Positions 4,609 to 63,833 of a stretch of 64,000 nt of DNA are shown piece by piece. The notes under the pieces were generated by a model, which was not told the origin of the DNA, ran no database searches, and worked only from the letters and a program-made list of their open reading frames with translations. How positions within the stretch are numbered: position 1 is the stretch's first letter; the number at the start of each line of letters is the position of its first letter. Origin of the DNA: a virus; the IMG/VR virus record IMGVR_UViG_3300035689_000007, positions 1 to 64,000 of that record. The stretch is one strand, 5' to 3'. Position numbers and translations under genes: made by a program.

Positions 4609-5849
4609 AACGTAGAAACTTCTTACTATCGACGGGTGTTGCTGGTATAACAGCAACTATGAATAATATCAGTTTTTCTATCAACTATAACAATGATCCA
4701 AAATTTACCTCAAATGATAATAGCGTTATATATCTATATCTTAGCGGTGGACCAACACACATTGAAACATTCAATCCGCTGCCATTAGCTCCATCTGATA
4801 GAAAATCTATTACTGGTAATATACATACCAAAATACCCGGATTTGCAATTGGTGGTATGTGGGATAAAATAGCAAATCAAACAAACAAAATTACGGTAGT
4901 AAATAGTTTCCACCACTCTGATCCAAACCATGAAAGTGCAACACACTGGATGTTAACGGGAGAAAGAACAACTCCAAATAGTCCACCTAAATGGCCTAGT
5001 TTTGGTAGCGTTATTTCTGGACAATATGGAACGAATATAAAAAATGGTCTACCTTCCTATATCAAGTTAAATACAATTCAATACGATGGTGCCGCATGGA
5101 TGGGTACTAAATACATGGGCTATACTGCTAGTAGAGAAGGTGTAGATGATCTGTTTATGAAAAATGAGAAGAAGTTCAAAGATAGAATGAAGATGTTAGA
5201 GGTACTTGAAAAGCATAGCCCAATACCGGATGATCGTAATGCTAACGCTTGGCTTGAATTAAGAAGTCAGGCTGTAGACGTATTAGTAGGAAAAGCTAGT
5301 GAAGCTTTCCTAATAGAAAAAGATAAAGACTTTGCTAACTACAAAGATAGCCAACTTGGCAAAGATATGCTTACTGCTATTAGACTTATAGAGGCCGGTG
5401 TAAAATTTGTTACAATTAATTACGGCGGATGGGATATGCATGATAACATACTAAACGGTCTAAAAAGTAAAGTACCGGCATTAGATCATGTATTGTCCAT
5501 GTACTTTAATTCAGCGGAGCAAAGAAATATCAACTATAAAAATCTATTAGTAATGAGTGGTGACTTTGGAAGAACTCCAAAAATCAATAAAGATGCTGGT
5601 AGAGATCATTGGCCGCATCTAGTTCCACTATTACTAGCTTGTGATACATATGAAATGAATAGAGTAATTGGTGCCTCTGATAGTAATGGAGAAAGGCCAG
5701 TAGACCATCCATTTGAACCAGAAGATTTAAAATGGACTATTTTAGAGCATATGGGTGTAAATAAAGATGCAGATTGGTATAGCATAGAAAATAGGCCAAT
5801 GATGTTCGTACAAGAAAACGCAAAAAATATTCTGAGGTATTCAATATAA
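4605..5849 (+). CDS. DUF1501-family protein with twin-arginine (Tat) signal
   Basis: MKRRNFLL Tat motif; LSGGPTHIETFNP, GWDMH and GDFGRTPKIN...GRDHWP match DUF1501 proteins. GGAG RBS and ATGA overlap with nrdA. Confidence 0.85.
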   Translation: MKRRNFLLSTGVAGITATMNNISFSINYNNDPKFTSNDNSVIYLYLSGGPTHIETFNPLPLAPSDRKSITGNIHTKIPGFAIGGMWDKIANQTNKITVVNSFHHSDPNHESATHWMLTGERTTPNSPPKWPSFGSVISGQYGTNIKNGLPSYIKLNTIQYDGAAWMGTKYMGYTASREGVDDLFMKNEKKFKDRMKMLEVLEKHSPIPDDRNANAWLELRSQAVDVLVGKASEAFLIEKDKDFANYKDSQLGKDMLTAIRLIEAGVKFVTINYGGWDMHDNILNGLKSKVPALDHVLSMYFNSAEQRNINYKNLLVMSGDFGRTPKINKDAGRDHWPHLVPLLLACDTYEMNRVIGASDSNGERPVDHPFEPEDLKWTILEHMGVNKDADWYSIENRPMMFVQENAKNILRYSI

Positions 5850-5850
5850 T

Positions 5851-6930
5851 ATGCAAACAATACTAAATAAAAAGAACGTCAATTATCTAAATCAACCTAT
5901 ATTTTTAGGTGAAGATCTATCATTACAGCGATATGATAAGTTTAAATATCCTGTCTTTTTTGATCTATATAAGAAACAGCTAGAATTTTTCTGGAGGCCA
6001 GAAGAAATAGAATTAAAAAAGGATCGAAACGATTTTAAGAATGACAGTATTATGAGTCCAAACGAAAGATTCATTTTTACGTCGAATCTAAAATATCAAA
6101 CAATGATGGATTCTGTGATATGTCGTGGAGTTCCAACTTTAGTAAATTATGTTTCTAATCCAGAATTAGAAGCATGTATGAACGTGTGGCAATTTTTTGA
6201 GCAAATCCATAGTTATAGTTATACGTATATCATCAAAAATGTGTATAGCGATCCTAGCGAGATTCTAGATAGTTGTCTTACCGATAAAGAGATCTTAAAA
6301 AGGGCAGATGTAGCAATTAAGGAGTATAATGCTCTTAGGGAGCTTGGTAATTCCACAAAGAAAAAAGATCTTAAAAAACAGATATACTTAACCTTAATTA
6401 GTGTAAATATATTAGAAGCAATTCGTTTTTATGTCTCATTTATTTGTGCGTTTGCCTTTGCGGAAAATAAAAAGATGATAGGCAATGCAGATATCATCAA
6501 ACTTATTAAGAGAGATGAGGCTTTGCATCTATATAATACCCAAGAAATAATTAAGATTTTGAGGACTGTTCCAGAAGAAGGTTTTGTCGAAATAGCTTCC
6601 GAGTGCGAAGAGGAGGCTTGTAAAATGTTTGATTCTGCTGCTGCGGAAGAAAAAGCTTGGTCACAGTACCTGTTTAAAGATGGCTCAATTATAGGATTAA
6701 ATGACAGGGTAATGTGTGAATATATAGATTGGTTGTGCATGACTAGGCGTAAGAATATAGGATTGCCATACGAAAAAGGATATAAAAATCCAATAGCTGG
6801 ATGGACTGATCCTTGGATGAATAGTGAATCTGTACAAGTTGCACCACAAGAACATGAAATTACTTCATATAAAATTGGTGCTAGTAAGAACGATTTAGAA
6901 GAAGTTGACTTAGGAGGTTTTAGTCTATGA
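5851..6930 (+). CDS. nrdB: Ribonucleoside-diphosphate reductase class Ia, beta subunit
   Basis: FFWRPEE, EQIHSYSY, EAIRFYVSF, RDEALH di-iron ligands, VAPQE...SY. Confidence 0.97.
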   Translation: MQTILNKKNVNYLNQPIFLGEDLSLQRYDKFKYPVFFDLYKKQLEFFWRPEEIELKKDRNDFKNDSIMSPNERFIFTSNLKYQTMMDSVICRGVPTLVNYVSNPELEACMNVWQFFEQIHSYSYTYIIKNVYSDPSEILDSCLTDKEILKRADVAIKEYNALRELGNSTKKKDLKKQIYLTLISVNILEAIRFYVSFICAFAFAENKKMIGNADIIKLIKRDEALHLYNTQEIIKILRTVPEEGFVEIASECEEEACKMFDSAAAEEKAWSQYLFKDGSIIGLNDRVMCEYIDWLCMTRRKNIGLPYEKGYKNPIAGWTDPWMNSESVQVAPQEHEITSYKIGASKNDLEEVDLGGFSL

Positions 6931-7370
6931 GTTGTACAAAGTTTATGGATTATATACAGGTATCATTACTAAATAGTAATGCTAAAATACCCACAAAAGC
7001 TCATAATGATGATGCTGGATTTGATTTATATTCTAGTGTTGATATAAACATAGCACCTAAATCAAGAGCTACAATCAATACATCAATAGCAATAGCGATG
7101 CCAAGCAATTTTGCCGGTTTAATTTGGCCTAGATCTGGCCTATCTGTTAAACATGGTATAGATGTTTTGGCTGGAGTGGTAGATAGTGGTTATAGGGGAG
7201 AAATACTAGTATGTCTATACAATACTTCAGATGATATCGTAGAGATTCATACTGGGGATAGAATCGCTCAGATTATATTCCAAGAGGTTCCTCGCGTATC
7301 ATTATCAGTCAATGCAACGTTAGGTTCCTCGCAACGAGGGAGTAATGGCTTTGGAAGCACAGGCACATAA
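6927..7370 (+). CDS. dut: Trimeric dUTPase
   Basis: AGFDL, PRSGLS, GVVDSGYRGE, GDRIAQ, RGSNGFGSTG. Confidence 0.97.
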   Translation: MSCTKFMDYIQVSLLNSNAKIPTKAHNDDAGFDLYSSVDINIAPKSRATINTSIAIAMPSNFAGLIWPRSGLSVKHGIDVLAGVVDSGYRGEILVCLYNTSDDIVEIHTGDRIAQIIFQEVPRVSLSVNATLGSSQRGSNGFGSTGT

Positions 7371-8037
7371 TAACAACCGAAAAGATAAAAAAGCAAATAA
7401 GAAAAAAACCAGTTCCACAAATTCGCTAGAAGCTAAGACAGAAAATCAAAAAAATTATATACGCTCTATTATAGAAAACGATATTATTTTTTGTACTGGA
7501 CCGTCTGGCAGTGGTAAATCTTTTATTGCCGCTGGACTAGCTGCACAAAAATTACTAAAAGATGAAATAGATACTATTATTGTAACTAGACCTTTAGTAT
7601 GCACTGGAAGAGACATAGGCTCACTACCCGGAGAATTGAATGAAAAAATTAAACCATATCTACAGCCAATGGAAGAAAATTTAAGGTTTTTCCTTGGTAG
7701 AGATTTATTTGGTTTATATTTTAATCAACGTAGAATTAGATTTGAACCTCTGGAAACTATGCGTGGATCTACATTTCATAAATCTTATATGATTTTAGAT
7801 GAAGCTCAAAATTGCACTCTAGAACAAATTAAAATGTTCATAACTAGAATGGGACAGGATAGTAAAGTGCTTATAAATGGAGATAATAAACAAACCGATA
7901 TCTATACTAAATGTGGATTAGATTTTTGTATGGATAGGTTGTCTAGCGTTCAAGGTGTCGGAATCTGTCGATTGGAGTATCATGATATACAGAGGAACGG
8001 AATTTTAGGGGCTGTGCTTTACGCATTAGAAAAGTAA
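7345..8037 (+). CDS. phoH: PhoH-family ATPase
   Basis: GPSGSGKS, TRP, LPGELNEK..PY, MRGSTF, DEAQN, TRMG, GDNKQTD, DIQRNG. Confidence 0.95.
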   Translation: MALEAQAHNNNRKDKKANKKKTSSTNSLEAKTENQKNYIRSIIENDIIFCTGPSGSGKSFIAAGLAAQKLLKDEIDTIIVTRPLVCTGRDIGSLPGELNEKIKPYLQPMEENLRFFLGRDLFGLYFNQRRIRFEPLETMRGSTFHKSYMILDEAQNCTLEQIKMFITRMGQDSKVLINGDNKQTDIYTKCGLDFCMDRLSSVQGVGICRLEYHDIQRNGILGAVLYALEK

Positions 8038-8381
8038 TGCTATACGATTATCAATGTGCTAGTTGTCAATATTTTATGATCGATGTATATCAATCGATTC
8101 ACGATGCCCCATTAGATACATGTCCTAATTGTGATAGTAAATCTTTGGAAAGAATAATTAGCGGTGGACTTGGGGCATTTGTTAAAGATGTAAAAACTAT
8201 TGGTCAACTAGCGGACCATAATTGGAAAAAATTAGGATCATACGAAAAATCAGACAGGGTGCATCAAGACAAAAGGGTGATAGAAGAAAAACCCCAGTTT
8301 TATGGAAATGCTAGCAAGTCCCAAATAAGTAAAATGACAGAAGCACAAAAACAAAAATACATTATAACAGGTGAAACATGA
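8037..8381 (+). CDS. FmdB-like zinc-ribbon protein
   Basis: YDYQCASC...CPNC...LERIIS. Confidence 0.75.
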   Translation: MLYDYQCASCQYFMIDVYQSIHDAPLDTCPNCDSKSLERIISGGLGAFVKDVKTIGQLADHNWKKLGSYEKSDRVHQDKRVIEEKPQFYGNASKSQISKMTEAQKQKYIITGET

Positions 8382-8716
8382 AGTATGTTGAGAAGAATAC
8401 AGACCTATCTGAAATAGATACTAATATAACGGTTACCTTCTTTGACAAGAAGGGAAATATTACAGATGATAATAGAAATGCTTTTGGACAAATCATTACA
8501 AAGCAAAAGGCAGATGGTTCTAATCATAAACAGTATCAAATATCAACATATAATAATGTGTTATATGACCCAATGGGTGCAGACGGTCACAGAAAAAATA
8601 TCAATCTTGTACTCAAAACTGTGGACCAACAAACGTTTGATTATTATATCATGTACCTAAAAACAAAAAATTCATTATATATGACTAGAGCGCAAAGGAG
8701 TTTTATCAATGGCTAA
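8378..8716 (+). CDS. Hypothetical protein
   Basis: Coupled ORF in the operon (AGGTG RBS, ATGA overlap). Confidence 0.75.
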   Translation: MKYVEKNTDLSEIDTNITVTFFDKKGNITDDNRNAFGQIITKQKADGSNHKQYQISTYNNVLYDPMGADGHRKNINLVLKTVDQQTFDYYIMYLKTKNSLYMTRAQRSFING

Positions 8717-9005
8717 AAAAGGACCGATTGGGAAAGTAGAAGCATTTTATATAGACAACAATTACAAGAACATGACTGTTGCAGAAATCGCTACAGATCT
8801 AGATAGAACAATAACATCTATAGAAAGCTACATTAAAAAGAATCATGTCAGACAAAAGCCAACAATTACTGTCGGTGATCAATTTGCTAGAACTAATGGT
8901 GTTACGATCATGACAGAAAATGCGTCAAGTATGTCTGATGAAAAAAGAAGAAATAATAAAACTATTAACAAGCCTAAAACATCTTGTATAACTAAAATAA
9001 AATGA
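8709..9005 (+). CDS. Small basic protein, possible helix-turn-helix
   Basis: AAGGAG RBS; MTVAEIATDLDRTITSIESYI resembles an HTH. Confidence 0.6.
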   Translation: MAKKGPIGKVEAFYIDNNYKNMTVAEIATDLDRTITSIESYIKKNHVRQKPTITVGDQFARTNGVTIMTENASSMSDEKRRNNKTINKPKTSCITKIK

Positions 9006-9436
9006 GCTATATATTTGGCAAAGAACAATTCCTACAAAGGTATAAACAGCTTTCTAGCCAAGACAGAAGAAATATATGGATCATTGTTCATACATCAGAT
9101 GAATCTGATATTTATTTAGAAGACTATAGTGATTGGCTAACGATTGGGAATTATTGTAACGCTAACAAGTTAACTATTAGTAAAATTTCTCTACAGTATA
9201 AAAGTCATGTTGTAGATTTTGATACTACTAATGCCGATGGTGTTTATTTATCTAAAACGGCAAAAGGTACACTTGGTGGTGAAACAAAACAATGCTATAG
9301 CATTGGTGTGTTAAGGGAAAATAAAATATATCGCACACTATATGCTATACCAGAATTGATAGAAGATCTAAAATTAGAAGACGAAGTTGAAAACTGTTTG
9401 AAAGAGGCTTTAGTTGTATATGACAAAGAAAGATAA
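9002..9436 (+). CDS. Hypothetical protein
   Basis: ATGA-coupled ORF. Confidence 0.7.
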   Translation: MSYIFGKEQFLQRYKQLSSQDRRNIWIIVHTSDESDIYLEDYSDWLTIGNYCNANKLTISKISLQYKSHVVDFDTTNADGVYLSKTAKGTLGGETKQCYSIGVLRENKIYRTLYAIPELIEDLKLEDEVENCLKEALVVYDKER

Positions 9437-9941
9437 ACCTTCATTATTCAACCAAAAGTATCAATCTCAATGGTCAGAAACTCACAAGTATAAACATATA
9501 CACACTGGTGAGTATTGCACTTTTGAAGCATATGTTGCTGAATATATTGTACTTAGAAGGGCTGAAAAACTAAATCTAGGTAAACCTTCCTATAAGTTTT
9601 GGACTAAGGGAGATCCTAATCACTGGTTGTGGAAAAAACAACTTGGTGCAGCAAGACAGCTTAAAAAGAAATATAGCGAAGAAGCAATATTGAGAGCAAT
9701 CAAATCAAAAGAATTTGACAAATTGCTAGTACTTGGTGTGCAAGATGGTAGGGGCTACAAGATTAATCCGCTTGCGGAACGTGTTATCGCAATGTATGAT
9801 AGTAGGGTAAGGGAAGAAGCAGACAAGCAAAAGGCACTTGAAGCACCAGTTACTACCGAACCTCCACAACAATTGGAACTAAGAAAAACTCAAACATCAA
9901 CTAAAAATAAGACAATGTTAAATAAATTGAGGGACTTATGA
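9420..9941 (+). CDS. Hypothetical protein
   Basis: ORF in the operon; first ATG at 9420 after GAGG. Confidence 0.7.
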   Translation: MTKKDKPSLFNQKYQSQWSETHKYKHIHTGEYCTFEAYVAEYIVLRRAEKLNLGKPSYKFWTKGDPNHWLWKKQLGAARQLKKKYSEEAILRAIKSKEFDKLLVLGVQDGRGYKINPLAERVIAMYDSRVREEADKQKALEAPVTTEPPQQLELRKTQTSTKNKTMLNKLRDL

Positions 9942-11044
9942 ATAAAACAAAAAAGAAATCAATATCTAAGTTTGACTCCGATGTAGTAAGCAATTCTGTC
10001 ATTACTAAGTATGGAGATGTTGTGCGAAGCGGAACGGAAGTTCTAGAGTCCATTAATAGTCTAGAAGTTATAGGCTTATCTCCAGCATTAGATATTGCAC
10101 TAGGTGGAGGTTTAAGAGAAGGTTCTGTTGTAGTCATGACGGGCGATCCGAAAAGTGGTAAAACTACAACCGCTTTGCATTTTGCTGCTAAATGTCAAGC
10201 TAAAAATAAAAGAGTAATCTATGTCAATACTGAAGGTAGATTATCAAAACAGAATTTTGAAGGAATAAAGGGTCTAAATCCAGACAATATTATTATCATC
10301 GAATCAACAGATGATAGAATACTAACAGCCGAAGATTTTCTCAACATTATAGAGTACTATATCAACAATGATCCCGGCTGTTTAATAATAGCAGATTCTT
10401 TATCAAACATGGTTCCCGCTTGTGAACTTGAAGGGGAGGTTAGGACCGGTGTTAGAAATGCTTTACCTAGATTACTATCTATGTTTTTTAAGCGTATTAG
10501 TGGCACGTTGATGAAGAATAAAATTATGCTAATTTGCATCACACACAATATTGCTAATACCGGAGGATCTCCATATGCACCATCAAAAATGGCAGATTGT
10601 GGAAACATGTTACAATATCAAGCTGGAACCAATATGATTATTACACATCGTGGTAAGTGGCAAGTACCAAAAGACACTGGCGAACACGTTGGACAAATTG
10701 CTAACTGGTCTATTAAAACTTCTAACGCTGGTGGAAGACCAAATAGCACCGCCGAAAGTTGGATTCGATATGGTGTAGGAATAGACGAAGTGCAAGAAAT
10801 TATTCACATAGCTTGTGAGTTTAGATTAATAAAGGCTAGTGGAGCTTGGTACACTATATCGTGTGCTGTAGAAAATACAAATCATCCAATAATCTCAAAG
10901 ATATTATCAGACAATAATATATCTGGAGAAGAAAACGTTGAAAAATTCTTTAAGTTTCAAGGTGTTAACAATGTATGCGAATTCTTAACACAGAATAAAC
11001 TGATTGCGGATTTTGTATACGAAAAAATAAAGGAGCTATATTGA
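9938..11044 (+). CDS. recA: RecA/UvsX-like recombinase
   Basis: LDIALGGGL, Walker A GDPKSGKTT, YVNTEGR, IIADSLS, GIDEVQE, GAWY. Confidence 0.9.
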   Translation: MNKTKKKSISKFDSDVVSNSVITKYGDVVRSGTEVLESINSLEVIGLSPALDIALGGGLREGSVVVMTGDPKSGKTTTALHFAAKCQAKNKRVIYVNTEGRLSKQNFEGIKGLNPDNIIIIESTDDRILTAEDFLNIIEYYINNDPGCLIIADSLSNMVPACELEGEVRTGVRNALPRLLSMFFKRISGTLMKNKIMLICITHNIANTGGSPYAPSKMADCGNMLQYQAGTNMIITHRGKWQVPKDTGEHVGQIANWSIKTSNAGGRPNSTAESWIRYGVGIDEVQEIIHIACEFRLIKASGAWYTISCAVENTNHPIISKILSDNNISGEENVEKFFKFQGVNNVCEFLTQNKLIADFVYEKIKELY

Positions 11045-11463
11045 AAGTTATTGGAATAAATGGTAAAGAATACGTATGGAATTTAGCTGGATATGATGTC
11101 AAAGCCAATGATACAAGATCAAGATCTAAGTACCATTTAAGAGCTAGAATCTTACTAAAAGATATATTCCATAGTTATAGGATACTTGAAGAGGTTAAGT
11201 TACCCGGAAGTACCGCAAGGCATCGAAGAGGGGTTTTGTATTTAGACTTTTTCATACCACAGGTTAATATGGCAATTGAAGTTCACGGTCAACAACACTA
11301 TGAATTTAATCCATTTTTCCACAAGAACAAAGCAGATTTTGTCTTGTCTCAAGCCAAGGACTATGATAAAATGGAGTGGTGCCGCATCAACAAATTAAGA
11401 TTAGTTACTCTAAAGTATTCTGACTCAAATGAAGATTGGAGACGACAAATTGTCAACCGCTAA
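11041..11463 (+). CDS. DUF559/Vsr-like PD-(D/E)XK endonuclease
   Basis: LYLDFFIP...AIEVHGQQHY...D..K..WC; TTG start after AAGGAG. Confidence 0.75.
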   Translation: MKVIGINGKEYVWNLAGYDVKANDTRSRSKYHLRARILLKDIFHSYRILEEVKLPGSTARHRRGVLYLDFFIPQVNMAIEVHGQQHYEFNPFFHKNKADFVLSQAKDYDKMEWCRINKLRLVTLKYSDSNEDWRRQIVNR

Positions 11464-11911
11464 AGAAAATCTTGAACAACATATTAAAGACATAGACGAC
11501 TACATCAATGGACACAACACAAAATTCTCATCTTTTAGAGAAGAGTTTTTGTTGGTAGCAGATATGTCAATAGAAAATCTGAAGAAACTTACTAAAGATG
11601 AACTATTTGATAGTGCTTATATGTTATATAGTTATGCTTCATATATACAAGACGATATAAATCGTAATAAAATTGCGTTAGATTGGTGCAATGATCAATT
11701 AGAGAAATTAGTTGTAAAACATAATGACACTTTTGATAAATATACCAAACACGAATCTAAGAAACAAATTATAGTTCAAGAAAATAGCTATGCAGCAAAA
11801 GTAGATCAAATGAGATTAGTAGCAGAAGCAAGACTACAATCTCTAGATGGCAAGGTTTATGAGATCAAGAGAAAAGCGGATATCCTACTAGAAAAGGGCA
11901 AAAGATCATGA
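11429..11911 (+). CDS. Helical/coiled-coil protein, possible UvsY-like recombination mediator
   Basis: All-alpha heptad pattern and position between recA and helicase; function inferred from context only. Confidence 0.45.
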   Translation: MKIGDDKLSTAKENLEQHIKDIDDYINGHNTKFSSFREEFLLVADMSIENLKKLTKDELFDSAYMLYSYASYIQDDINRNKIALDWCNDQLEKLVVKHNDTFDKYTKHESKKQIIVQENSYAAKVDQMRLVAEARLQSLDGKVYEIKRKADILLEKGKRS

Positions 11912-12309
11912 GTATGGAAGAATTTATAAAGACGTTAAGCGAAGAACAAAAGCAAGCTTTGTTAAAAGCTTTAAGTGATAATAAGCCCACGACAGAGCAA
12001 AGTGAACAAACAACAATAAAGAAACATATTAGCAACAGTCAAAGTCAAAATTTTATCACAGAAACAAAACCTAAGATACAAAATCAACAAAGGAGAGAGC
12101 CAGTGAGAGGAAGGGGAAATGAATGGGTTGATACTGGAGAGGGTAGAGATATTTTTACTCCAGAAACAGAAAGAACTCCTAGGAAAAGACCGCCACCAGT
12201 AAAACAAATGGTAGAATGTCACGCCTGTGGAAAAACATTTAAAGCAGACAAGAGATTTATTTATGGAGAATATGTCCGATGCGATAGGTGTGTGGGGAAA
12301 AAGCGATAA
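11908..12309 (+). CDS. Hypothetical protein with C-terminal zinc finger
   Basis: CHACG...CDRC. Confidence 0.7.
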   Translation: MSMEEFIKTLSEEQKQALLKALSDNKPTTEQSEQTTIKKHISNSQSQNFITETKPKIQNQQRREPVRGRGNEWVDTGEGRDIFTPETERTPRKRPPPVKQMVECHACGKTFKADKRFIYGEYVRCDRCVGKKR

Positions 12310-15524: not shown

Positions 15525-15525
15525 T

Positions 15526-16545: not shown

Positions 16546-16546
16546 A

Positions 16547-17404: not shown

Positions 17405-17413
17405 GGAGATATC

Positions 17414-18403: not shown

Positions 18404-18639
18404 AGAAATGGAAGGATCATCTCGACTCTAATAACATGACATACTGTGAACATTGGATGTTTGCAGTGTGTCATGGGTTGAGATGTATAAAAGCCGGATT
18501 TTGTCTTATATTACATGGTAATTTTCCATGTTTTTTAGTGCATACTGGTAGTGAATTGATACATAAATTAGAACAAGATTTTACTAAGAGAGAAAAGGAT
18601 ATTGATGATGAAAAAACCAATACTAAGACCGTTAAGTAA
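18388..18639 (+). CDS. Small His-motif membrane-associated protein (DUF6356-like)
   Basis: HL...MTY.EH..FA...G...LH..FP pattern; family name recalled from memory. Confidence 0.55.
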   Translation: MQSLVKKWKDHLDSNNMTYCEHWMFAVCHGLRCIKAGFCLILHGNFPCFLVHTGSELIHKLEQDFTKREKDIDDEKTNTKTVK

Positions 18640-18717: not shown

Positions 18718-18753
18718 AGAGTATCGACACGTTGCACATAGGAGAAATATACA

Positions 18754-56126: not shown

Positions 56127-56135
56127 ATTTATTCC

Positions 56136-59100
56136 TTATCGACCAACTGTTGATGAAGACTTGCTTAAAGTACCACCTTGTCCAACTTTATATTTACTGA
56201 TTTCTTTAGTTACAGCCTCAATGATTTGATTATTAGCATAATCTTTGATTGCCTTAAATATTCCACCATCCATTAGGTTGACAGTAACAGTAACAGGCGC
56301 TAATGTAATATTTAAACCTAATGAACTTAATCTATCTATATTAGCTTGAAATGCACCCAAAAACGTTGTCAAAGATTGAGAAAAATTGCTTAATGCGGCT
56401 AAATCTATTGGTGGTTGTGCGTTACCATTTGCGGGCGTAGTATTAGTCGCTATAGTAGATAATACACTTTGTAGACCACCAATAGCACTAATAATACCAT
56501 CTGAATTAAATGTTGGCATCATTTGTTGTGGACTAGCTCCAGAACTACTAGTATTTTGTGGTACTTGTGGAACATTGGTTACTGGTGGCGCAGGAGTTGT
56601 AGCGACGTTTGCTGGTGGAGTAGTACCAGTTTGAGATGGTGGAGTATAATTAGTATTTGCAGCTAATCTTGCTTGGAGCGCTGGGCTTCCAGAAACATTT
56701 GCAAGCAGAGCAGAAAATGGAGAACTTGGTGCAGGTTTAGACGCTTGTGCTTCTGGTTGAGCTTGAGCTTTTGGTTCTGGTGGTGGTGCAGCAGGCTGAT
56801 CGGCTTTTGGCGCTTCAGCACCTTCTGCGGCTTTACCAGCCTCGCCAGTTCTTTCTTTAACGTTTTGTACGGCTGCTTCCATTTGTTTCTTTGCTGCTTC
56901 TTCCAAAGCCCTAGCAGCATCTAATTGTAGCTTTGCTGCTAATTCTTGATTTTGTGCTGCTGGAACTAATTGTGCTGCTAAACCTCTAGCCTCTTCTTGA
57001 ATTGCTTTTTCTTCAGCGGTTGTTCCTGCGGCAACTTCTGCCATACCCTTGAGATCACCAGACATTCCAGTATTAGCCAAACCTGCTGCATAAGCGTTTT
57101 CTGTAACCTGATCTATATTTTGACCAAACACTTCTCTTACGCCAGCTTCTTTTTGTGCTTGTAATTGTTTTGTAGCCTCTCCAAAAGCTGTAAAACCAAA
57201 TTGACTAGTTAATCTTGGATCGCCAACCGCCGCTGCTGCGGCTGCTCCAGCGCCAGCTTGTTTGTTTAAAAACTCTTCTATATTTCCACTAAGTAAAGAA
57301 TCGATAGCATCTTTTTCAGCTTTGTTTTTAGCCTTAACAAGTTTTAGTTCTTGACGTTTAACATCAATTAATGCTCTAATGGTTTCTTGTTCTTTAGCTG
57401 CGAGGTCTGCTAGTCTTTGTTCTTGAGCTTCAAATTCTGGATTAATTTGTTGTTGAGCGCCCCTGTCGCCACTTGCTGCCGACTTTCTAACAGCACCAAG
57501 TTCTTCCATTTTTGCTCTAGTTTCTGCACTTCTTTGAGCAAATTCAGCAGCACTGCCTGTCTGTAGACCACTAACACCAGCTTGTGCTGAATCAAGATTT
57601 GCTTTATCTAATATTGCTTGTTTTTGCATTTCTGGAGTGACTGCCGCCCCTCCAAATTCTTCCATAATTTTAGCAGCTTCCATCTGAACATCAATAGTTT
57701 TCTTTTGAGCTTCAATGTATTTATTTTCAAGATCTATTCTTTGTTTTTGTATTTTGAATAATTGTTCTTCAGATTCTTTAACCTTTTGTAAGGCTGGAAG
57801 AACTTGAGATAATGTCTGTTCTCCAAGTTCTCCAAGAGCGTTCTGTAATGGAGCAAAGTTACCATCAACAATTTGTTGCATATCGTCTTCACTGAGTTTT
57901 CCACCCTCGATAGCTTTTTTAATTCTCTCTTTAACTTCTGGCGCAAAATCTTTTAGTTGATTAACAACTGCCTCTCCTAAAGCTTCACGTTTTTCATCTG
58001 CCGTGCCAGTACCACGGGCAACACCTCTCTCAAAATCTGCTTTTAATTTTGCTTTTGCTTCTTCACTCGCTTGAGCGAAGAATTTTTGAGCTTGATTAAC
58101 TGCGCCTAGATTTTCTTCAAATTTCTTTATTTGTGCTGGATCGCCACCAAGTTTACTTAGTTGTCCAGAAGCTTCTTGAACAGCGCTGTTCCAATCAGTA
58201 TCAGAAATACCTTGGGCAGCATTTGTAATACCAGCTTCTAGTGTAGATATTGTTTGTCCAAGTCTTGATGTGCTACCATCTTGTGCTTCAATAAGATTAT
58301 TAATTCCAACAGAGGCGGCGGAAGCTGCGGCATTTACATTATTAAATCCTAAGTTCATAGCATTAAAAGCTTCTCTTGTTCTTTGAGCTTCTTTAGCTAA
58401 ATTATTAAATTCCTTCTCCATTCTTTGTAATTCGCTGTCTCTACCTTTCGCCTTGGCTTCATCTTGTTCTCTTTCTAATGTTGCAACGACATTAGTTCCT
58501 TGTTCTGCGTCTCTTTGCTTTAAGAGATTAAGGACATCTTGAAAAGATCCGCCGGAATTAGCTGTTTGTCTTTGGATTAAACCTATTCCGGGTTTTGCGC
58601 TAGCAAGAACAGTTTTATCTAATTCTTTATTTGCTTTTTGTAATTCTTCTTGTTTTTGTACTTTTTGTTGTTTAACTTCTGCATTAGAATCGACAAATCC
58701 AAAACTTAGCCAAGCTAATGCTTCCCTCATATAACTAAATGTATCTTCTGCTAATTCTTTTTGTAGTGCGCTTAAAGCTTCTTCATTTGCCATTCTTGCT
58801 TCAACAGCCGCTAATTGTGCAGAAGAAGCAGCATTCAAAACATCAATAGCAGAAGCGGTGCCATTTCTAAATTCTTCCATTTTTTGTGAAGTAGCATCCT
58901 GTGCATCTTGGAATTTTTCAGTTGCTTTATTTGTTAAAGCCATAGCCTTGGCGTGTTTAATTATTATGTCGCCATCTACTTCTAAGCTAGCCGTCATTGC
59001 GCCAACACCAGCACCAATGATTGCTCCTGCCGCAGCACCAATAGTAGTTCCAATGACAGGAACAATAGACCCAACAGCAAGACCAATAGCAGCACCAGAA

Positions 59101-62100
59101 GCAGCACCAAGACCAACATTACCTAGTTCATCTCCAGTTGGTCTAACCATTCTTTCTTTGGCACCAACCTCTTCTTCGGCTTTTAACACAGCCGTATTAA
59201 CATCTCCCTCTTTTATAGCTTTTTCTTTTTGCGCTTTAGCAGCTTCAGCAATAGAAGATTGCCATAATGCAAATGCTCCTATAGCGCCAAGAACTGCGGC
59301 AGCTAATAATACAAAAGGATTAGCCAATACTGCTGCTAAATTAGCAGATGTTTCAGCCACTTCTGAAGCAGTATTTGCTGTATTAGCTCCAGTTTCTGCG
59401 CCCTCTGTTATAGTATTTGCGGTATTGGCTGCTGCATTAACTTTAGCAGCAGAACTCATTAATCCTACATTAACTAGCAATCCTTTAAAACCATCAACAA
59501 TGCCTCCAAGAGGTATTTGTTGTAATAAAAAGGCAACAGTAGAAAATTGTAAACCTAATTCTGAAATATTTTTCTTAAAATAATCCATTGATGTAGAATT
59601 TTCATCAATTGTTGGAGCAAGCATTGCTAATGCAGAAGTGACTGCACTAAATGCGGCAAAAGCGGCCATGCCATCTCCACCGCCTCTTCTTGGAGTTCCA
59701 CCACCACCACCACCACCACCACCGCCAGCGCCGCCCCTATTTCCAGCATCAGATGCTCTATTAGATGGAAGTGGAGAACTTGCCCCTTGAACAGTATTGC
59801 GTAAATCTGATCTGGCTGAACGCTCTGCCCTTGTTATCGTGGCTCTACGTTCTAATATTTCTTGCCTAGATCTTTCTTCTCTAAAACCGCCGCCACCAAC
59901 GTCTCTTGATTCAACTCTAGCTCTGTATTCTGGATCTGTAGCTAATCTTCTACCTCGTAAAATTGCTTCTGTTTTTTCGCCACCCTTAGTAAATCCAGCT
60001 TCTTGTAATTGTTGTTTTTTAGCTTTAGCTGCGGCAGTCTTATCAGACATTTCTTTGCCGGTGCGAACATCAATGCGAGACGCAGATGCTCCACTTCTAA
60101 TAGTTTTTCGAGCTTGATCAAAAGCTGCTTGAGCTTGAGCTTTAATTGCTTCTTTTAATCTTTCTCTTTCTTTTTGAATAGCGTCTGTAGCAGTAATACC
60201 TCTTCTAGCTAATTGTTCTGTACTAGTATTATAAGCTAATTCTTTATTTGTAGCAGATAAAATTCTCTGTTTTACATTAGCAATTTCTTGATCGATGTTT
60301 CTATCAACTTCACCACTAGATGAAACTGGAGATTTTGTAACATCTTTACTAGTTTTTGCGGATTCTTGTTTTACTTTAGTATCTTCTAACAAAGCTCTTC
60401 CATAAGCTTCTAATCTTTCTTGAACAATTACATGTTGTGCAGTATTACCATCTAAAGATGAAATATATTGACTAATTTCATCAATAATACCAAATTGAGT
60501 TAATGATCCAAGTTTATTAGCAGCGGCGTTGTCTTTAAGAGCCGTAATAAGTGGACCTCCACTAAAACCTATAACACCTTTAATTTGTTGACTTAAAGAA
60601 GCGTAGCCAGAACTTAATTCTTGATTAAATCCAGCAAAATTAGCTATACGTGAAGATAAATTTTTGGTAACTTTATCAAGAACTTTGAAAGTTGTGGATA
60701 CACCAGTGAATATACTGGGATCAAAATCCACAAACCCCTCACTACCAGATCCTAAAAATTGTGGCGGTTTACTTTTACCACCATTGGCAAATCTTTGAAC
60801 ACCAACTATGCCACCCTTTGCATATTTACCAACTTTATTCATACGGTTAAGAGAACCATAACCAATATTTTGAGCAGATTGTTTATTAATTACGAACTCA
60901 CCGGGAGTCAACAATGCCGGAACAGTATCTGTGCCGACATTTCCACCAGTAGCAAATCGTTTTACTGATCGATCAGCCCTTGGACCCTTTGATCTCATTG
61001 AATCAAGTGCTGGTTGTTTGCTTGCGCCCTGAGTAAATATCATGTTTGCGGTGGGTATACCAAACAATCCACCAAGGTATTCAGCAGCGCCCTTAACTCT
61101 TTTAGATTTGCTGATAATACTAATTTTGCGAGGATCTATTTGACCTGACTTAATTATAGCTTGTAGTTCTTTACCAAATTGAGTTAATGGAGAAGATTTC
61201 AAATCTTGTAATCTTTTTGCTTCATCTCTAAAATATGTTTGTAGAACAGATTGTTTTGCTTCTGGAGTTTTTGCTTTGGCGTATGCTAAATCACCAACTG
61301 TTCGTTTTAGAGTACGATCAATATCTACAGCGCCGCCGCCAGACTTTATTAACGCTTGAATAGCAGAACTTGGGTTTGGCAATATAGAACCAGATGCTTG
61401 TAATATATCATCAACCATTGGGGCTGTTGCCAAACCACCGGCAGCAAATTTTCGAATTATTCCTCCTAAGAATTTTTTTTGTTTTCTAGCAGATACTCTT
61501 TGTTCAGCGGTTGATGCCTTTTTTCTATTTTCTATATCTGAAGTAAATCCACCAACATTTTGTGATATTAGTTCATTGGCTAGTGTAGATCTAAATCCTT
61601 CTACAAGTTTATTTGTACCTTTTTTTGCTAAACTTCCAAGAGAATCTTCAGAAAAAGTTCTTTTGGCGTCTGATATTAAAGATGAATCTAAATTAAATAT
61701 TTGACCAGCAGACCCAAGACCAGAAGGAAAATCGAAAGTGTCATTTGGATTAATTTTATTTTCAGTAAATGGAGAATTAGACAAACCATTAACAAAAGCT
61801 TCAAAAATTCCACCTTCTATTTGTTCAATATTAGCTCTATTTAAAGCAGCACTAAACTTACCAGAATCAAATGGTGGATTATTTTTAAATGTCTGAGAAG
61901 CAAAAGTATTTGAAAAATTTGCTAACGATGTATTGATACCATTTTTATATTGTTCAGAAACTGTTTTAGATAATGAGCCAGATGTTATACCTATGGACAC
62001 ACTGTTAAATTTTCCAATTAATTCTTGAGTTAAAGTTTTAGTGGCAGATTTTCCAAGACCAGAAGTAACGGAGTTTAGCATAGAATTAATGCCAGATTTA

Positions 62101-63833
62101 TCTATTCCTGCTACAGTTTTTCTCATTATCCCTTCTGGTTGTAAAAACACACCACCAATATCTAATTCTTTGTCTTGAGGATCTTTATCTCCAGCGGCAC
62201 GAATAACAGCTTGAATTTGTTGATCATTTATCTTGAATGTAGAACTGACACCATCTGATTCTAATTTTTCCTGTAAATTTTTTCTCGTTCCCTGTTTTCC
62301 ACCCTTTTGGAATCTATTCTCATTCATAGCAGCAAGATTACTAGCACCTAATCTATTGACGCTACTCTTTCTAATAACAAATTCGCCGGGTTGTAACATT
62401 GCTGGAACAGTATCTCTATTGCCACTGCCGGGAACCATACCACCCCTAGCAAAATAATGAACTTGACCTCCGCGAGACATTCTTCTACCACCACCACCGC
62501 CACCTAATCCGGCTGAAATACCACCTAAAAATCCACCAATACCTTGTGCCGCTTTAATGCTAGCAAATGTTAATAATAATGGTATAACGGGTTTTAACGA
62601 ATCTGCAAGTTTAATTAGTGCGCTCGCTAATTTCAAAGTAGTATCAGCAAGAACTTGGAAAGTGCCAGTTTGTGTAATACTTCTAATTAGTGCTAGAAAT
62701 TCTTCTTTAACTTTGATAATTCTTATAGCAAGAGATTGTTGTGCAGTAGCAACGTCATTAGCCAAAGAACCCGCGCCCTCTTGTGCGACATTTAAAGCTT
62801 CTTGAGCAACAGCAAACTGTTGTAAGAGTGGAATAACTTTACCAATCTGTCTAAAGCCACCAAGCTCTTCTGCAACGCGAATAAATGTAATATCGCCCTG
62901 TTCTAATCCACCAAGGGCTTCGCTCAATCTTTTAATGGCTTCAAACGGTCCAACGAATTTACCCTGTAAATCTACAAGCTCTACACCAAACTGTTTTAAG
63001 AATTCAATTGTTTTGGGGCGTTGGATACGTGTAAAAATTGTACGTAAACCAGTACCAATACTTTCTGCACTTTCTCGCGTAGTCGCTCTTACGCTGGTGA
63101 ACAATGCCAAGAGTTCATTAAGACTACCGCCAGAAGATTTAAACACACCGCCCGTTCTACGAACAACGTCGATCAAGTCAGATGATTCAACAGCAAACGC
63201 CGCTGAAACAGCGTTAACTGAACCAAGTTGTTGTTCTAAGGCAGCGGCACCAGCTCTAAACTGATTAAAAATAGCCACAGCGCCTTCTGTGGTTTCTGTA
63301 ATATCATCGAACGTTGGCGACAATTGAGTTTGTGCTAAAGTTCTAAGTGCTATTTCTGTATCTTTGGCAGTTAAACCAGCTTGTGCTAAAATCGTTGAAA
63401 CATTTATCAAACTAGAAGAACTAACACCTAAATTAGTAGCTAAAGATGTAATTGTCTCACTAAGAGAAGAAAGTTGTGTGATAGTCTTGCCAGTGACCTG
63501 ACTTATACGAACTAACTCTCTTTCAAATTTTATAGCTTCATCTACGGCGCTGGAAATTGTATTAGTAAAAAGACTAACAGCCCTAGTTGCTACGGCTAGG
63601 GCTGAAAATCTTCTTACTGATGTTACGAATGTTCTGCCTAGTCTTTCTGACGCTACAGTAGCTCTATCAGTAGACTGAGTTAATTGATCTATTTCAGATC
63701 TAGCTCTTGCAGCATTATTTACCTGTATATTAACTCTAACATTATCAAGTTGACTTTGGATTTGTCTAACAACTTGATTAACATTTGAGGGCGCTTGTAT
63801 ATTTAACTGTGCTGTGAGTACAAATCTTGACAT
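56136..63833 (-). CDS. Tail tape measure protein (TP901-like core) with internal accessory segments
   Basis: N-terminal core (FERELVRISQVTG, LAQAGL, ESIGTGLRTIFTR), Ala/Gln/Glu-rich helices, TM/glycine-zipper segments, two GG...DTVPA.L.PGEFV motifs. Confidence 0.92.
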   Translation of the reverse strand: MSRFVLTAQLNIQAPSNVNQVVRQIQSQLDNVRVNIQVNNAARARSEIDQLTQSTDRATVASERLGRTFVTSVRRFSALAVATRAVSLFTNTISSAVDEAIKFERELVRISQVTGKTITQLSSLSETITSLATNLGVSSSSLINVSTILAQAGLTAKDTEIALRTLAQTQLSPTFDDITETTEGAVAIFNQFRAGAAALEQQLGSVNAVSAAFAVESSDLIDVVRRTGGVFKSSGGSLNELLALFTSVRATTRESAESIGTGLRTIFTRIQRPKTIEFLKQFGVELVDLQGKFVGPFEAIKRLSEALGGLEQGDITFIRVAEELGGFRQIGKVIPLLQQFAVAQEALNVAQEGAGSLANDVATAQQSLAIRIIKVKEEFLALIRSITQTGTFQVLADTTLKLASALIKLADSLKPVIPLLLTFASIKAAQGIGGFLGGISAGLGGGGGGRRMSRGGQVHYFARGGMVPGSGNRDTVPAMLQPGEFVIRKSSVNRLGASNLAAMNENRFQKGGKQGTRKNLQEKLESDGVSSTFKINDQQIQAVIRAAGDKDPQDKELDIGGVFLQPEGIMRKTVAGIDKSGINSMLNSVTSGLGKSATKTLTQELIGKFNSVSIGITSGSLSKTVSEQYKNGINTSLANFSNTFASQTFKNNPPFDSGKFSAALNRANIEQIEGGIFEAFVNGLSNSPFTENKINPNDTFDFPSGLGSAGQIFNLDSSLISDAKRTFSEDSLGSLAKKGTNKLVEGFRSTLANELISQNVGGFTSDIENRKKASTAEQRVSARKQKKFLGGIIRKFAAGGLATAPMVDDILQASGSILPNPSSAIQALIKSGGGAVDIDRTLKRTVGDLAYAKAKTPEAKQSVLQTYFRDEAKRLQDLKSSPLTQFGKELQAIIKSGQIDPRKISIISKSKRVKGAAEYLGGLFGIPTANMIFTQGASKQPALDSMRSKGPRADRSVKRFATGGNVGTDTVPALLTPGEFVINKQSAQNIGYGSLNRMNKVGKYAKGGIVGVQRFANGGKSKPPQFLGSGSEGFVDFDPSIFTGVSTTFKVLDKVTKNLSSRIANFAGFNQELSSGYASLSQQIKGVIGFSGGPLITALKDNAAANKLGSLTQFGIIDEISQYISSLDGNTAQHVIVQERLEAYGRALLEDTKVKQESAKTSKDVTKSPVSSSGEVDRNIDQEIANVKQRILSATNKELAYNTSTEQLARRGITATDAIQKERERLKEAIKAQAQAAFDQARKTIRSGASASRIDVRTGKEMSDKTAAAKAKKQQLQEAGFTKGGEKTEAILRGRRLATDPEYRARVESRDVGGGGFREERSRQEILERRATITRAERSARSDLRNTVQGASSPLPSNRASDAGNRGGAGGGGGGGGGGTPRRGGGDGMAAFAAFSAVTSALAMLAPTIDENSTSMDYFKKNISELGLQFSTVAFLLQQIPLGGIVDGFKGLLVNVGLMSSAAKVNAAANTANTITEGAETGANTANTASEVAETSANLAAVLANPFVLLAAAVLGAIGAFALWQSSIAEAAKAQKEKAIKEGDVNTAVLKAEEEVGAKERMVRPTGDELGNVGLGAASGAAIGLAVGSIVPVIGTTIGAAAGAIIGAGVGAMTASLEVDGDIIIKHAKAMALTNKATEKFQDAQDATSQKMEEFRNGTASAIDVLNAASSAQLAAVEARMANEEALSALQKELAEDTFSYMREALAWLSFGFVDSNAEVKQQKVQKQEELQKANKELDKTVLASAKPGIGLIQRQTANSGGSFQDVLNLLKQRDAEQGTNVVATLEREQDEAKAKGRDSELQRMEKEFNNLAKEAQRTREAFNAMNLGFNNVNAAASAASVGINNLIEAQDGSTSRLGQTISTLEAGITNAAQGISDTDWNSAVQEASGQLSKLGGDPAQIKKFEENLGAVNQAQKFFAQASEEAKAKLKADFERGVARGTGTADEKREALGEAVVNQLKDFAPEVKERIKKAIEGGKLSEDDMQQIVDGNFAPLQNALGELGEQTLSQVLPALQKVKESEEQLFKIQKQRIDLENKYIEAQKKTIDVQMEAAKIMEEFGGAAVTPEMQKQAILDKANLDSAQAGVSGLQTGSAAEFAQRSAETRAKMEELGAVRKSAASGDRGAQQQINPEFEAQEQRLADLAAKEQETIRALIDVKRQELKLVKAKNKAEKDAIDSLLSGNIEEFLNKQAGAGAAAAAAVGDPRLTSQFGFTAFGEATKQLQAQKEAGVREVFGQNIDQVTENAYAAGLANTGMSGDLKGMAEVAAGTTAEEKAIQEEARGLAAQLVPAAQNQELAAKLQLDAARALEEAAKKQMEAAVQNVKERTGEAGKAAEGAEAPKADQPAAPPPEPKAQAQPEAQASKPAPSSPFSALLANVSGSPALQARLAANTNYTPPSQTGTTPPANVATTPAPPVTNVPQVPQNTSSSGASPQQMMPTFNSDGIISAIGGLQSVLSTIATNTTPANGNAQPPIDLAALSNFSQSLTTFLGAFQANIDRLSSLGLNITLAPVTVTVNLMDGGIFKAIKDYANNQIIEAVTKEISKYKVGQGGTLSKSSSTVGR
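59698..59736 (-). repeat. (GGT)n trinucleotide run encoding a poly-Gly linker in the TMP
   Basis: Plus strand ccaccaccaccaccaccaccaccaccgccagcgccgcc, encoding GGAGGGGGGGGGGT. Confidence 0.8.
60770..62480 (-). repeat. Eight basic-aromatic-x-x-GG peptide motifs, two extended as DTVPAxLxPGEFV, within the TMP
   Basis: RRMSRGG, HYFARGG (62439-62453), NRFQKGG (62298-62315), KKFLGG, RKFAAGG (61434-61448), KRFATGG (60942-60956), GKYAKGG, QRFANGG. Confidence 0.8.

What the first reader, a model, noticed from the sequence alone, without database searches (positions are those of the whole stretch)
4830..62435. Near-total avoidance of CCWGG, visible as forced CCS codons at Pro-Gly
Seen: Pro is usually CCA/CCT in this AT-rich DNA, yet Pro-Gly pairs are almost all CCC-GG or CCG-GG. 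By eye I count about 37 (e.g. 7627, 19588, 22196, 60901, 62386) against a single CCTGG (43704-43708), on both arms. CCGG, GATC, AAGCTT and GAATTC occur freely. Established: CCWGG is the EcoRII/Dcm-type site. Inference: long-term selection against a host CCWGG restriction or methylation system. The substitution is at the synonymous central base, so it points to selection rather than simple 5mC deamination. It also suggests the DNA is not globally shielded by hypermodification despite the many glycosyltransferases.
Basis: partly seen in the sequence, partly recalled or inferred. Interest (0 to 1): 0.7.

Follow-up and report, generated by a model that had tools for sequence, protein, structure and literature searches.

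The report
Phage purged of CCWGG restriction sites
An uncultured lake-water phage has silently respelled its genes to remove almost every CCWGG and some 25 other short restriction-enzyme target words; this is a very clean but ordinary case of a virus dodging bacterial DNA-cutting enzymes.

Summary
The window has 1 CCWGG (43704) against 40 CCSGG, and 37 of the 40 are in-frame Pro-Gly. The whole 78.6-kb contig has 2 CCWGG, against 52.6 +/- 4.6 expected from synonymous codon shuffles (z = -11) and 52-58 from Markov models. All three reading frames, both gene orientations and both arms are depleted. Pro before Gly is CCC/CCG in 44 of 46 cases; elsewhere Pro is 86% CCA/CCT.

CCWGG is one item in a wider purge. 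Also near zero are CCATGG, CTGCAG, TGGCCA, CAGCTG, GDGCHC, GGTACC, GGATCC and CTTAAG, plus the asymmetric words CCTGAW, CCAGTC and GGTCTC. GC-rich 6-bp palindromes stand at 0.19 of expectation, while non-palindromes of the same composition stand at 1.03.

Most of 65 uncultured relatives (55-79% DnaE identity) share the CCWGG purge, including two complete ~160-kb genomes. It was relaxed at least four times, and CCA/CCT returns at Pro-Gly wherever it is relaxed. No C5 or N4/N6 DNA methyltransferase was found in the contig or in the complete relatives. There is no excess of deamination products.

Best reading: ongoing selection by host restriction systems. The host is unresolved and a PVC host is not supported. 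This scan already holds 69 similar notes from at least 65 other genomes. This is a new member of a known kind.

The parts
1..64000 (.). Whole window, which is the first 64 kb of a 78,634-bp IMG/VR phage contig that CheckV rates at about 50% complete. CCWGG is depleted throughout (1 site), as are about 25 other short words.
43704..43708 (-). The only CCWGG in the window. It reads CCA-GG on the coding (-) strand and encodes Pro143-Gly144 of the 575-aa protein at 42407-44134. Its context is CCAGGAATA. The contig's only other site (contig position 67780, outside the window) has the same 9-mer and lies 24 kb away.
4836..4840 (+). First of 37 in-frame Pro-Gly pairs spelled CCS-GG, here in the DUF1501 gene. 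The other CCSGG sites start at 7627, 10373, 11203, 16537, 17702, 17768, 17993, 18356, 19588, 22196, 27342 (+ arm) and at 33062 through 62428 (- arm).
62428..62432 (-). Last CCS-GG Pro-Gly pair in the window, in the 2565-aa tape-measure-like gene. It shows that the rule holds on the minus-strand arm too.
38548..38553 (-). One of only two remaining copies of the asymmetric purged word CCTGAW/WTCAGG (2 observed vs 60 expected on the contig).
57107..57112 (+). The second remaining CCTGAW copy. It points the opposite way to the first, so there is no strand-bias strategy.

Best explanation
This is restriction-site avoidance. The contig is about half of a ~150-160-kb virulent-type, AT-rich (34% GC) tailed phage that recurs in lake-water metagenomes. 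Its lineage is under continuing selection from host restriction endonucleases that cut unmodified CCWGG (the EcoRII / BstNI-MvaI / PspGI type of specificity; the enzyme family is not determined). The phage appears to encode no DNA methyltransferase to protect itself. It survives because every CCWGG that arises is removed by synonymous change: CCW-GG (Pro-Gly) becomes CCS-GG; NCC-TGG/AGG becomes NCD-; NNC-CWG-G becomes CAA or another Leu codon. Other host enzymes impose the same pressure. As a result about 25 further words are near zero, mostly GC-rich 6-bp palindromes plus the asymmetric CCTGAW, CCAGTC, GGTCTC and CAGCTC. Shown here: the depletion, its DNA-level nature, its codon mechanics, its conservation and reversibility across relatives, and the absence of C5 and N4/N6 methyltransferase families. 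Inferred: that restriction enzymes are the selective agent, and that the DNA is unmodified at these sites.
For: (1) Size of the effect: 2 observed vs 52.6 +/- 4.6 by codon shuffle and 52-58 by Markov models. CCWGG is the most depleted 5-mer. (2) The effect is at DNA level, not translation level. CCAGG (2 vs 37.9) and CCTGG (0 vs 14.7) are both depleted on the sense strand, as are all three frames and both arms. CAG/CTG overall is not depleted (1769 vs 1875). CCSGG is enriched, so the target is CCWGG and not CCNGG. (3) The purge is specific to palindromes. In this contig, 6-bp palindromes with 4 G/C are at 35 vs 184 (18 of 24 absent) and those with 6 G/C at 0 vs 19 (8 of 8 absent). Non-palindromic 6-mers of the same composition are at 1.03 and 1.84 of expectation. 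(4) Selection is ongoing, not inherited inertia. Relatives with 55-79% DnaE identity mostly have 0 CCWGG against 10-25 expected per ~20 kb, including the deepest branch. Complete genomes G062 and G064 have 4 vs 133 and 3 vs 115. Avoidance was relaxed in at least 4 lineages. Pro-Gly is CCS 475 / CCW 7 in 56 avoiders, but CCW 35 / CCS 6 in 4 non-avoiders. (5) There is a mosaic of core and lineage-specific purged words. CTGCAG is 0 vs 108 across 46 non-redundant relatives. CCTGAW, TCCGGA, GGWCC and TTCGAA are purged only in some lineages. This is what a variable host restriction repertoire would produce. (6) No PF00145 or PF01555 match in the contig or in three 100%-complete relatives. No PF02086 match anywhere in MAG G001, which holds the 152-kb relative. 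(7) Site avoidance is a documented anti-restriction strategy, strongest for orthodox Type II sites in non-temperate dsDNA phages (Rusinov et al. 2018, PMC6286503). CCWGG methylation is seen on marine viral genomes, so CCWGG-directed systems exist in aquatic communities (PMC9516812, PMC8919816).
Against: No host and no cognate restriction enzyme have been identified. A CCWGG purge this uniform across a deep clade from many samples needs a CCWGG system that is common in the host populations, which is unusual for strain-variable R-M systems. The EcoRII-C family was found in only 3 of 61 relatives of the one MAG lineage that a clade member was binned with, although that binning is itself unreliable. 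Only about half of this phage's genome is available, so a methyltransferase or anti-restriction gene in the missing half cannot be excluded for this particular phage.
Confidence: 0.85

Rival explanations
1. The phage avoids the methylation mark rather than the cut. Hosts carry an orphan Dcm-type CCWGG methyltransferase. Progeny DNA methylated at CCWGG would then be cut by methylation-dependent (Type IV, McrBC/Mrr/MspJI-like) enzymes in the next host, so the phage sheds the sites in order to stay unmarked.
For: The sequence footprint would be identical to that of classical restriction avoidance. CCWGG methylation does occur on aquatic viral genomes.
Against: It does not naturally explain the simultaneous purge of about 25 other words, most of them classical Type II palindromes. 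No Dcm-type gene was found in the one candidate host MAG.
Confidence: 0.07
2. The phage avoids its own weapon. It encodes sequence-specific nucleases that degrade host DNA, and it keeps its own genome free of their targets.
For: The avoidance is conserved clade-wide, as a phage-encoded trait would be. The contig carries a PD-(D/E)XK nuclease (15526-16545) and an HTH plus DUF559-like nuclease (30921-31688).
Against: More than 20 distinct words would need many nucleases. The PD-(D/E)XK protein is Cas4/RecB-like, and the DUF559-like protein falls in phage homing-endonuclease clusters. Avoidance profiles differ between close relatives and converge between distant ones, which fits an external, host-side pressure.
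Confidence: 0.03
3. The depletion is mutational decay. Host Dcm methylation followed by 5mC deamination erodes CCWGG, as happens with CpG depletion in vertebrates.
For: CCWGG is the Dcm site (established knowledge). NCT-TGG is over-used before Trp.
Against: The products CTAGG (34 vs 34.8) and CCTAG (25 vs 23.1) are not in excess. The CTTGG excess is explained by joint avoidance of CCATGG/CATGG and NCC-TGG. At Pro-Gly the change is W->S, which deamination cannot produce, and C->T there would be non-synonymous. A 96% depletion in all frames is far beyond mutational equilibrium.
Confidence: 0.02
4. The pattern is a translation-level artefact. Codon-pair bias, or avoidance of internal Shine-Dalgarno-like AGG strings, produces an apparent CCAGG deficit.
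For: AGGA, AGGAG and AGGT are depleted on the sense strand only (206 vs 368; 32 vs 88; 209 vs 319), while their complements are not.
Against: CCTGG, which has no AGG on the sense strand, is 0 vs 14.7. CCAGG is reduced 19-fold against about 1.7-fold for AGGA. Non-avoiding relatives with the same proteins use CCA/CCT-GG freely.
Confidence: 0.02

Closest known systems
Restriction-site (short palindrome) avoidance in virulent dsDNA phages, as surveyed by Rusinov et al. 2018 (PMC6286503). From my own knowledge, classical cases include coliphage T7/T3 with few EcoRII (CCWGG) sites and GATC-free Staphylococcus phage K.
   Same: Near-complete elimination of Type II-type recognition words by synonymous substitution. 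It is strongest for palindromes and occurs without a self-methyltransferase. That paper reports complete or almost complete elimination in about a tenth of viral genomes.
   Different: The breadth is large: 26 of the 32 GC-rich 6-bp palindromes are absent, plus CCWGG and several asymmetric words. The host is unknown. The trait is documented here across an uncultured clade of about 65 relatives, with at least 4 reversals.
Earlier CCWGG-avoidance notes of this scan, for example e1-5320839 (giant phage in which all Pro-Gly pairs are spelled CCC/CCG) and e1-5782405 (cyanophage purged of GGWCC, GTAC and CCWGG).
   Same: The same footprint: Pro-Gly forced to CCS-GG, with many other words also missing.
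   Different: Those notes concern unrelated genomes. Unlike e1-5782405, e1-5379417 and e1-5703456, the residual sites in this clade share no flanking context, so there is no sign of a flank-dependent protective modification.
Dcm/Vsr signature of E. coli (very-short-patch repair). From my own knowledge, it leaves CCWGG over-represented and CTWGG under-represented.
   Same: It concerns the same 5-bp word.
   Different: The sign is opposite here: CCWGG is nearly absent, and CTAGG and CCTAG are at expectation. No Dcm-type gene was found.
Self-methylating phages. Aquatic viral genomes with m4C/m5C at CCWGG and GGWCC are reported in PMC8919816 and PMC9516812.
   Same: They face the same kind of restriction pressure in the same kind of habitat.
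   Different: Those phages keep the sites and methylate them. This clade lacks the methyltransferase families searched and deletes the sites instead.

Membership tests
Restriction-site avoidance (anti-restriction by site elimination) | The word is significantly under-represented against composition- and codon-aware expectations. | tested here: met
   2 vs 52.6 +/- 4.6 by codon shuffle, z = -11; 2 vs 52-58 by Markov models.
Restriction-site avoidance (anti-restriction by site elimination) | The depletion acts on double-stranded DNA: both orientations and all reading frames are affected, and palindromes are depleted while composition-matched non-palindromes are not. | tested here: met
Restriction-site avoidance (anti-restriction by site elimination) | The word is the recognition site of known restriction enzymes. 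| not tested
   CCWGG = EcoRII/BstNI/MvaI/PspGI and Dcm. CTGCAG = PstI, CCATGG = NcoI, TGGCCA = MscI, CAGCTG = PvuII, GDGCHC = Bsp1286I/SduI, GGTCTC = BsaI. I know of no enzyme assigned to CCTGAW.
Restriction-site avoidance (anti-restriction by site elimination) | The host encodes a cognate restriction enzyme. | not testable with these tools
   The host is unknown. There are no isolate relatives. MAG binning of clade contigs is inconsistent. EcoRII-C was found in 3 of 61 relatives of the SAR202 MAG.
Restriction-site avoidance (anti-restriction by site elimination) | The phage does not protect the sites with its own methyltransferase. | tested here: met
   No PF00145 or PF01555 match in the contig or in complete relatives G062-G064. 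No PF02086 match anywhere in MAG G001, which holds the 152-kb relative C7. Only about half of this phage's own genome is available.
5mC-deamination-driven depletion | Excess of the C->T products CTWGG/CCWAG. | tested here: not met
   CTAGG 34 vs 34.8 and CCTAG 25 vs 23.1. The replacements are W->S.
Flank-conditional shielding by a sparse DNA modification (as in scan notes e1-5379417 and e1-5703456) | Residual sites share a flanking context. | tested here: not met
   41 residual CCWGG sites from avoiding clade members show no conserved flank. The shared CCAGGAATA of the contig's two sites is not seen elsewhere.
Type III-style orientation strategy (as for EcoP15I sites in T7) | Residual asymmetric sites all point in one direction. 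| tested here: not met
   CCTGAW residuals are 1+/1- in the contig, 4+/7- in G062 and 7+/7- in G064.

The most novel reading that the evidence does not exclude
The purged-word profile may be a readable record of the host population's restriction repertoire. It includes asymmetric words (CCTGAW at 2 vs 60; CCAGTC at 0 vs 16) for which I know of no assigned enzyme. The CCTGAW/SAGCTS/CCAGTC/GGTCTC profile is shared between this contig and a separate branch of the DnaE tree, but not with the contig's own sister clade (SH-aLRT 98). Avoidance fingerprints may therefore track host or habitat rather than phage ancestry. If so, they could be used to link uncultured phages to hosts and to predict new restriction specificities.
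Probability: 0.3. Interest if true: 0.5.

Novelty: new member of a known kind. Interest (0 to 1): 0.3.

Why it matters
As a phenomenon this is textbook anti-restriction, so it matters mainly as annotation. It says the phage is probably virulent and carries unmodified or only lightly modified DNA. It says the phage relies on site loss rather than self-methylation. It says the phage's hosts carry a rich and partly conserved set of Type II-like restriction enzymes, including a common CCWGG cutter. The clade-wide data also give a clean natural experiment, because the codon choice at Pro-Gly flips with avoidance status. The list of purged words could be matched against lake methylomes to find the still unknown host.

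Tried and rejected
- Deamination origin: rejected, because there is no product excess.
- General CAG/CTG depletion: rejected (1769 vs 1875).
- SD-avoidance artefact: real for AGGA/AGGAG on the sense strand, but far too weak and one-stranded to explain CCWGG.
- CCNGG as the target: rejected, because CCSGG is enriched.
- Flank-dependent shielding of residual sites: none found among 41 sites.
- Orientation bias of residual CCTGAW sites: none.
- Phage-encoded methyltransferases: none found.
- Methyltransferases in the non-avoiding relatives, as a possible explanation for their relaxed avoidance: none found, but those records are only 10-53% complete.
- Host identification:
  - No isolate relatives by DnaE or by a structural protein.
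  - A DnaE search of genome contigs found nothing specific, or only cellular DnaE.
  - The phage DUF1501 protein is only 30-37% identical to Planctomycetota genes. Those loci have 42-71% GC and CCWGG at expectation.
  - The best DUF1501 'cellular' hit turned out to be a mis-binned 152-kb phage relative inside a SAR202 MAG.
  - Other clade contigs sit in Flavobacteriales, Verrucomicrobiales and Rhodospirillales MAGs, so binning gives no host.
  - No psbA in complete relatives.
- Population data: Logan contigs from four lake-water runs are at least 99% identical to the window. Their 40 listed SNVs create none of the avoided words, but that number is too small to be a test.
- PADLOC scan of 10 unannotated proteins: only a Cas4-like match for the PD-(D/E)XK nuclease.

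Full report
**What the DNA is.** The window is the first 64 kb of a single 78,634-bp IMG/VR virus record. The record is linear and CheckV rates it at about 50% complete. GC content is 34%.

The + arm (1-32.8 kb) carries replication and nucleotide-metabolism genes:
- class I ribonucleotide reductase nrdA/nrdB, with a DUF1501 gene between them;
- dUTPase, PhoH, a RecA-like protein, DnaB and a primase;
- a dNMP kinase and a PD-(D/E)XK nuclease;
- a DnaE split into two genes, with an exonuclease gene between the halves;
- several glycosyltransferases.

The - arm carries very large structural genes of 1210, 1426, 3996 and 2565 aa. No isolated phage is related. Near-identical DNA occurs in 24 lake-water metagenome runs dated 2020-2024.

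**Checking the observation.** The window has one CCWGG (CCTGG at 43704) and 40 CCSGG. The whole contig has two CCWGG sites.

Expected counts are much higher:
- about 34 in the window from base composition, with z about -6 under order-1/2 Markov models;
- 52-58 on the contig under order-1/2 Markov models;
- 52.6 +/- 4.6 on the contig from 300 shuffles that permute synonymous codons within each gene (z = -11).

CCWGG is the most depleted 5-mer under every model. Pro before Gly is CCC 27, CCG 17, CCA 2, CCT 0. Elsewhere Pro is CCA 674, CCT 166, CCC 66, CCG 69.

The other two frames are emptied as well. No NCC codon precedes Trp, although 9.5% of NCN codons elsewhere end in C. No NNC-CAG-G or NNC-CTG-G occurs. 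By frame, observed is (2,0,0) against expected (35.7, 9.2, 7.3), and both arms are depleted.

The Pro-Gly dipeptide is not selectively avoided at protein level. It occurs 46 times against 71 expected, and Gly-Pro is similarly low at 52.

**DNA level or translation level.** AGGA, AGGAG and AGGT are depleted on the sense strand only, which fits avoidance of internal Shine-Dalgarno-like strings. That could contribute to the CCAGG deficit. However, CCTGG on the sense strand is 0 vs 14.7, and CCAGG is down 19-fold against about 1.7-fold for AGGA. CAG/CTG as such is not depleted. CCSGG is enriched, so the target is CCWGG and not CCNGG.

**Selection or mutation.** The deamination products of Dcm-type methylation, CTAGG and CCTAG, are at expectation. 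The excess of CTTGG comes from NCT-TGG codon pairs, which avoid both NCC-TGG and CCATGG/CATGG. For example, Pro-Trp is CCT-TGG in 16 of 16 cases, although CCA is four times commoner elsewhere. The W->S change at Pro-Gly cannot come from deamination.

**CCWGG is one item in a broad purge.** A scan of degenerate 4-6-mers against the codon shuffles (counts are observed vs expected) found these near zero:

| Word | Observed | Expected |
|---|---|---|
| CCWGG | 2 | 52.6 |
| CCTGAW | 2 | 60 |
| SAGCTS | 3 | 52 |
| GRGCWC (within GDGCHC) | 0 | 24 |
| CTGCAG | 0 | 17 |
| TGGCCA | 0 | 17 |
| CCAGTC | 0 | 15.8 |
| CCATGG | 0 | 15.3 |
| GGTCTC | 0 | 9 |
| CTTAAG | 1 | 10.7 |

GGTACC and GGATCC are also absent (0 vs 7.7 and 0 vs 5.9).

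A composition-matched control shows the purge is specific to palindromes:
- 6-bp palindromes with four G/C: 35 vs 184, with 18 of 24 absent;
- 6-bp palindromes with six G/C: 0 vs 19, with 8 of 8 absent;
- non-palindromic 6-mers of the same composition: 1.03 and 1.84 of expectation;
- AT-rich palindromes: 0.88.

This palindrome-specific pattern is the hallmark of Type II restriction pressure. It matches the published survey, in which avoidance mainly concerns orthodox Type II sites in non-temperate dsDNA phages (PMC6286503).

**Relatives.** The N-terminal DnaE half retrieved 65 IMG/VR loci at 55-79% identity. Most have 0 CCWGG against 10-25 expected in about 20 kb, including the deepest branch. 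Two complete genomes with terminal repeats have 4 vs 133 and 3 vs 115 over 161-167 kb. At this divergence I would expect silent sites to be saturated, so the purge needs continuing selection; this step is inferred.

Avoidance is relaxed in L014/L024 (17 vs 12; 18 vs 11), L016/L017, L042 and L006/L009/L011. That is at least four changes on the DnaE tree.

Codon choice follows avoidance status exactly. In 56 avoiders Pro-Gly is CCS 475 / CCW 7. In four non-avoiders it is CCW 35 / CCS 6, equal to background.

Pooled over 46 non-redundant relatives (772 kb), a core of words is completely absent: CTGCAG 0 vs 108, GAGCTC 0 vs 78, GTGCAC 0 vs 57, GACGTC 0 vs 57, CGTACG 0 vs 34, CTCGAG 0 vs 26. TCCGGA is 1 vs 67 and AGGCCT is 1 vs 67. 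Other words are purged only in some lineages:
- GGWCC in the outgroup;
- TTCGAA in the 152-kb relative;
- CCTGAW, CCAGTC and GGTCTC in this contig and in a separate branch, but not in this contig's sister clade (SH-aLRT 98).

Residual CCWGG sites share no flanking context. Residual CCTGAW sites show no strand bias.

**No self-protection found.** There is no C5 (PF00145) or N4/N6 (PF01555) methyltransferase match in the contig or in three complete and two near-complete relatives. There is also none on the 152-kb relative, nor any PF02086 match in the MAG that holds it. The gene at 30921-31688 has weak nuclease-like Pfam matches and belongs to phage homing-endonuclease clusters. It is not a candidate restriction-like weapon.

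**Host.** Its closest cellular relatives are Planctomycetota genes at 30-35% identity, in loci with 42-71% GC and no CCWGG avoidance. The single best hit (37%) is contig VFHP01000007.1 in a SAR202 MAG. That contig is a syntenic 152-kb relative of this phage: RNR is 73% identical, DnaE 60%, and gene order is collinear from 39 to 135 kb. Its CCWGG count is 27 vs 214 and CTGCAG is 0 vs 28, whereas the MAG's other contigs have these words at expectation.

Other clade contigs are binned with Flavobacteriales, Verrucomicrobiales and Rhodospirillales MAGs, so binning is uninformative. Shine-Dalgarno motifs precede at least 36 of 66 genes. From my own knowledge, that argues weakly against a Bacteroidota host. 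The host remains unknown.

**Verdict.** The phenomenon is well known, and this scan already holds 69 similar notes from at least 65 genomes. This is a clean new example in an undescribed phage clade. It adds two modest points: a natural experiment showing that the codon rule is reversible, and an asymmetric purged word (CCTGAW) for which I know of no assigned enzyme.

Noticed in passing
window-wide; residual copies at 38548-38553 (-) and 57107-57112 (+): The asymmetric word CCTGAW/WTCAGG is almost eliminated (2 vs 60 expected), while CCTGAS is untouched (15 observed, about 19 expected). I know of no restriction enzyme with this site. Avoidance is shared with a separate branch of relatives (0 vs about 20 in each of about 20 loci) but not with the contig's sister clade.
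   Followed up: partly
window-wide, coding strand: AGGA, AGGAG and AGGT are depleted on the sense strand only (for example AGGAG 32 vs 88, against its complement CTCCT at 11 vs 19). AGGAG/AAGGA/GAGG motifs precede at least 36 of 66 start codons. This fits avoidance of internal Shine-Dalgarno-like sequences, so the host probably uses SD-dependent initiation.
   Followed up: partly
L147-L154 (G001:C7 = VFHP01000007.1, 152,655 bp): A contig deposited in a 'SAR202 cluster bacterium OSU_TB57' MAG is a near-complete phage genome syntenic with this contig. It is probably mis-binned. The same applies to contigs in Flavobacteriales, Verrucomicrobiales and Rhodospirillales MAGs (L242-L244).
   Followed up: partly
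L147-L154 (C7): In this 152-kb relative, 25 of the 27 residual CCWGG sites lie in the 84-150 kb region (mostly structural/late genes), and the first 84 kb has only 2. This may reflect different pressure on the part of the genome that enters or is expressed first.
   Followed up: no
43704-43712, and contig position 67780 (outside the window): The contig's two surviving CCWGG sites share the same 9-mer CCAGGAATA (Pro-Gly-Ile) and lie 24 kb apart. No such context recurs at residual sites in relatives, so this is probably chance. From my own knowledge, EcoRII-type enzymes need two nearby sites, so widely spaced sites might be tolerated.
   Followed up: partly
30921-31688 (+): This 255-aa protein has an N-terminal HTH-like part and weak DUF559/DUF2726/PvuRts1I-N matches (E about 0.05-0.08). 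It falls in virus-only 'homing endonuclease family' clusters in the ESM Atlas (score 0.99; TM 0.82-0.86). It is conserved at 55% identity in the 152-kb relative.
   Followed up: partly
L064, L055, L052 (deepest branch of relatives): GGWCC is fully purged only in this outgroup (0 vs 17 per 22 kb), and there CCTGAW is at expectation. This is an example of lineage-specific avoidance profiles.
   Followed up: no
L016/L017: These relatives have relaxed avoidance of many words at once (CCWGG 8 vs 12, GDGCHC 5 vs 12, GGTACC 3 vs 1), yet no methyltransferase was found in the 53%-complete record. They may use another anti-restriction strategy or infect a host with few R-M systems.
   Followed up: partly
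window 33001-53000: Contigs from four further lake-water runs match at 99% or more, with only about 64 SNVs in total over 20 kb. This is a persistent, nearly clonal lake population across runs dated 2020-2024.
   Followed up: partly
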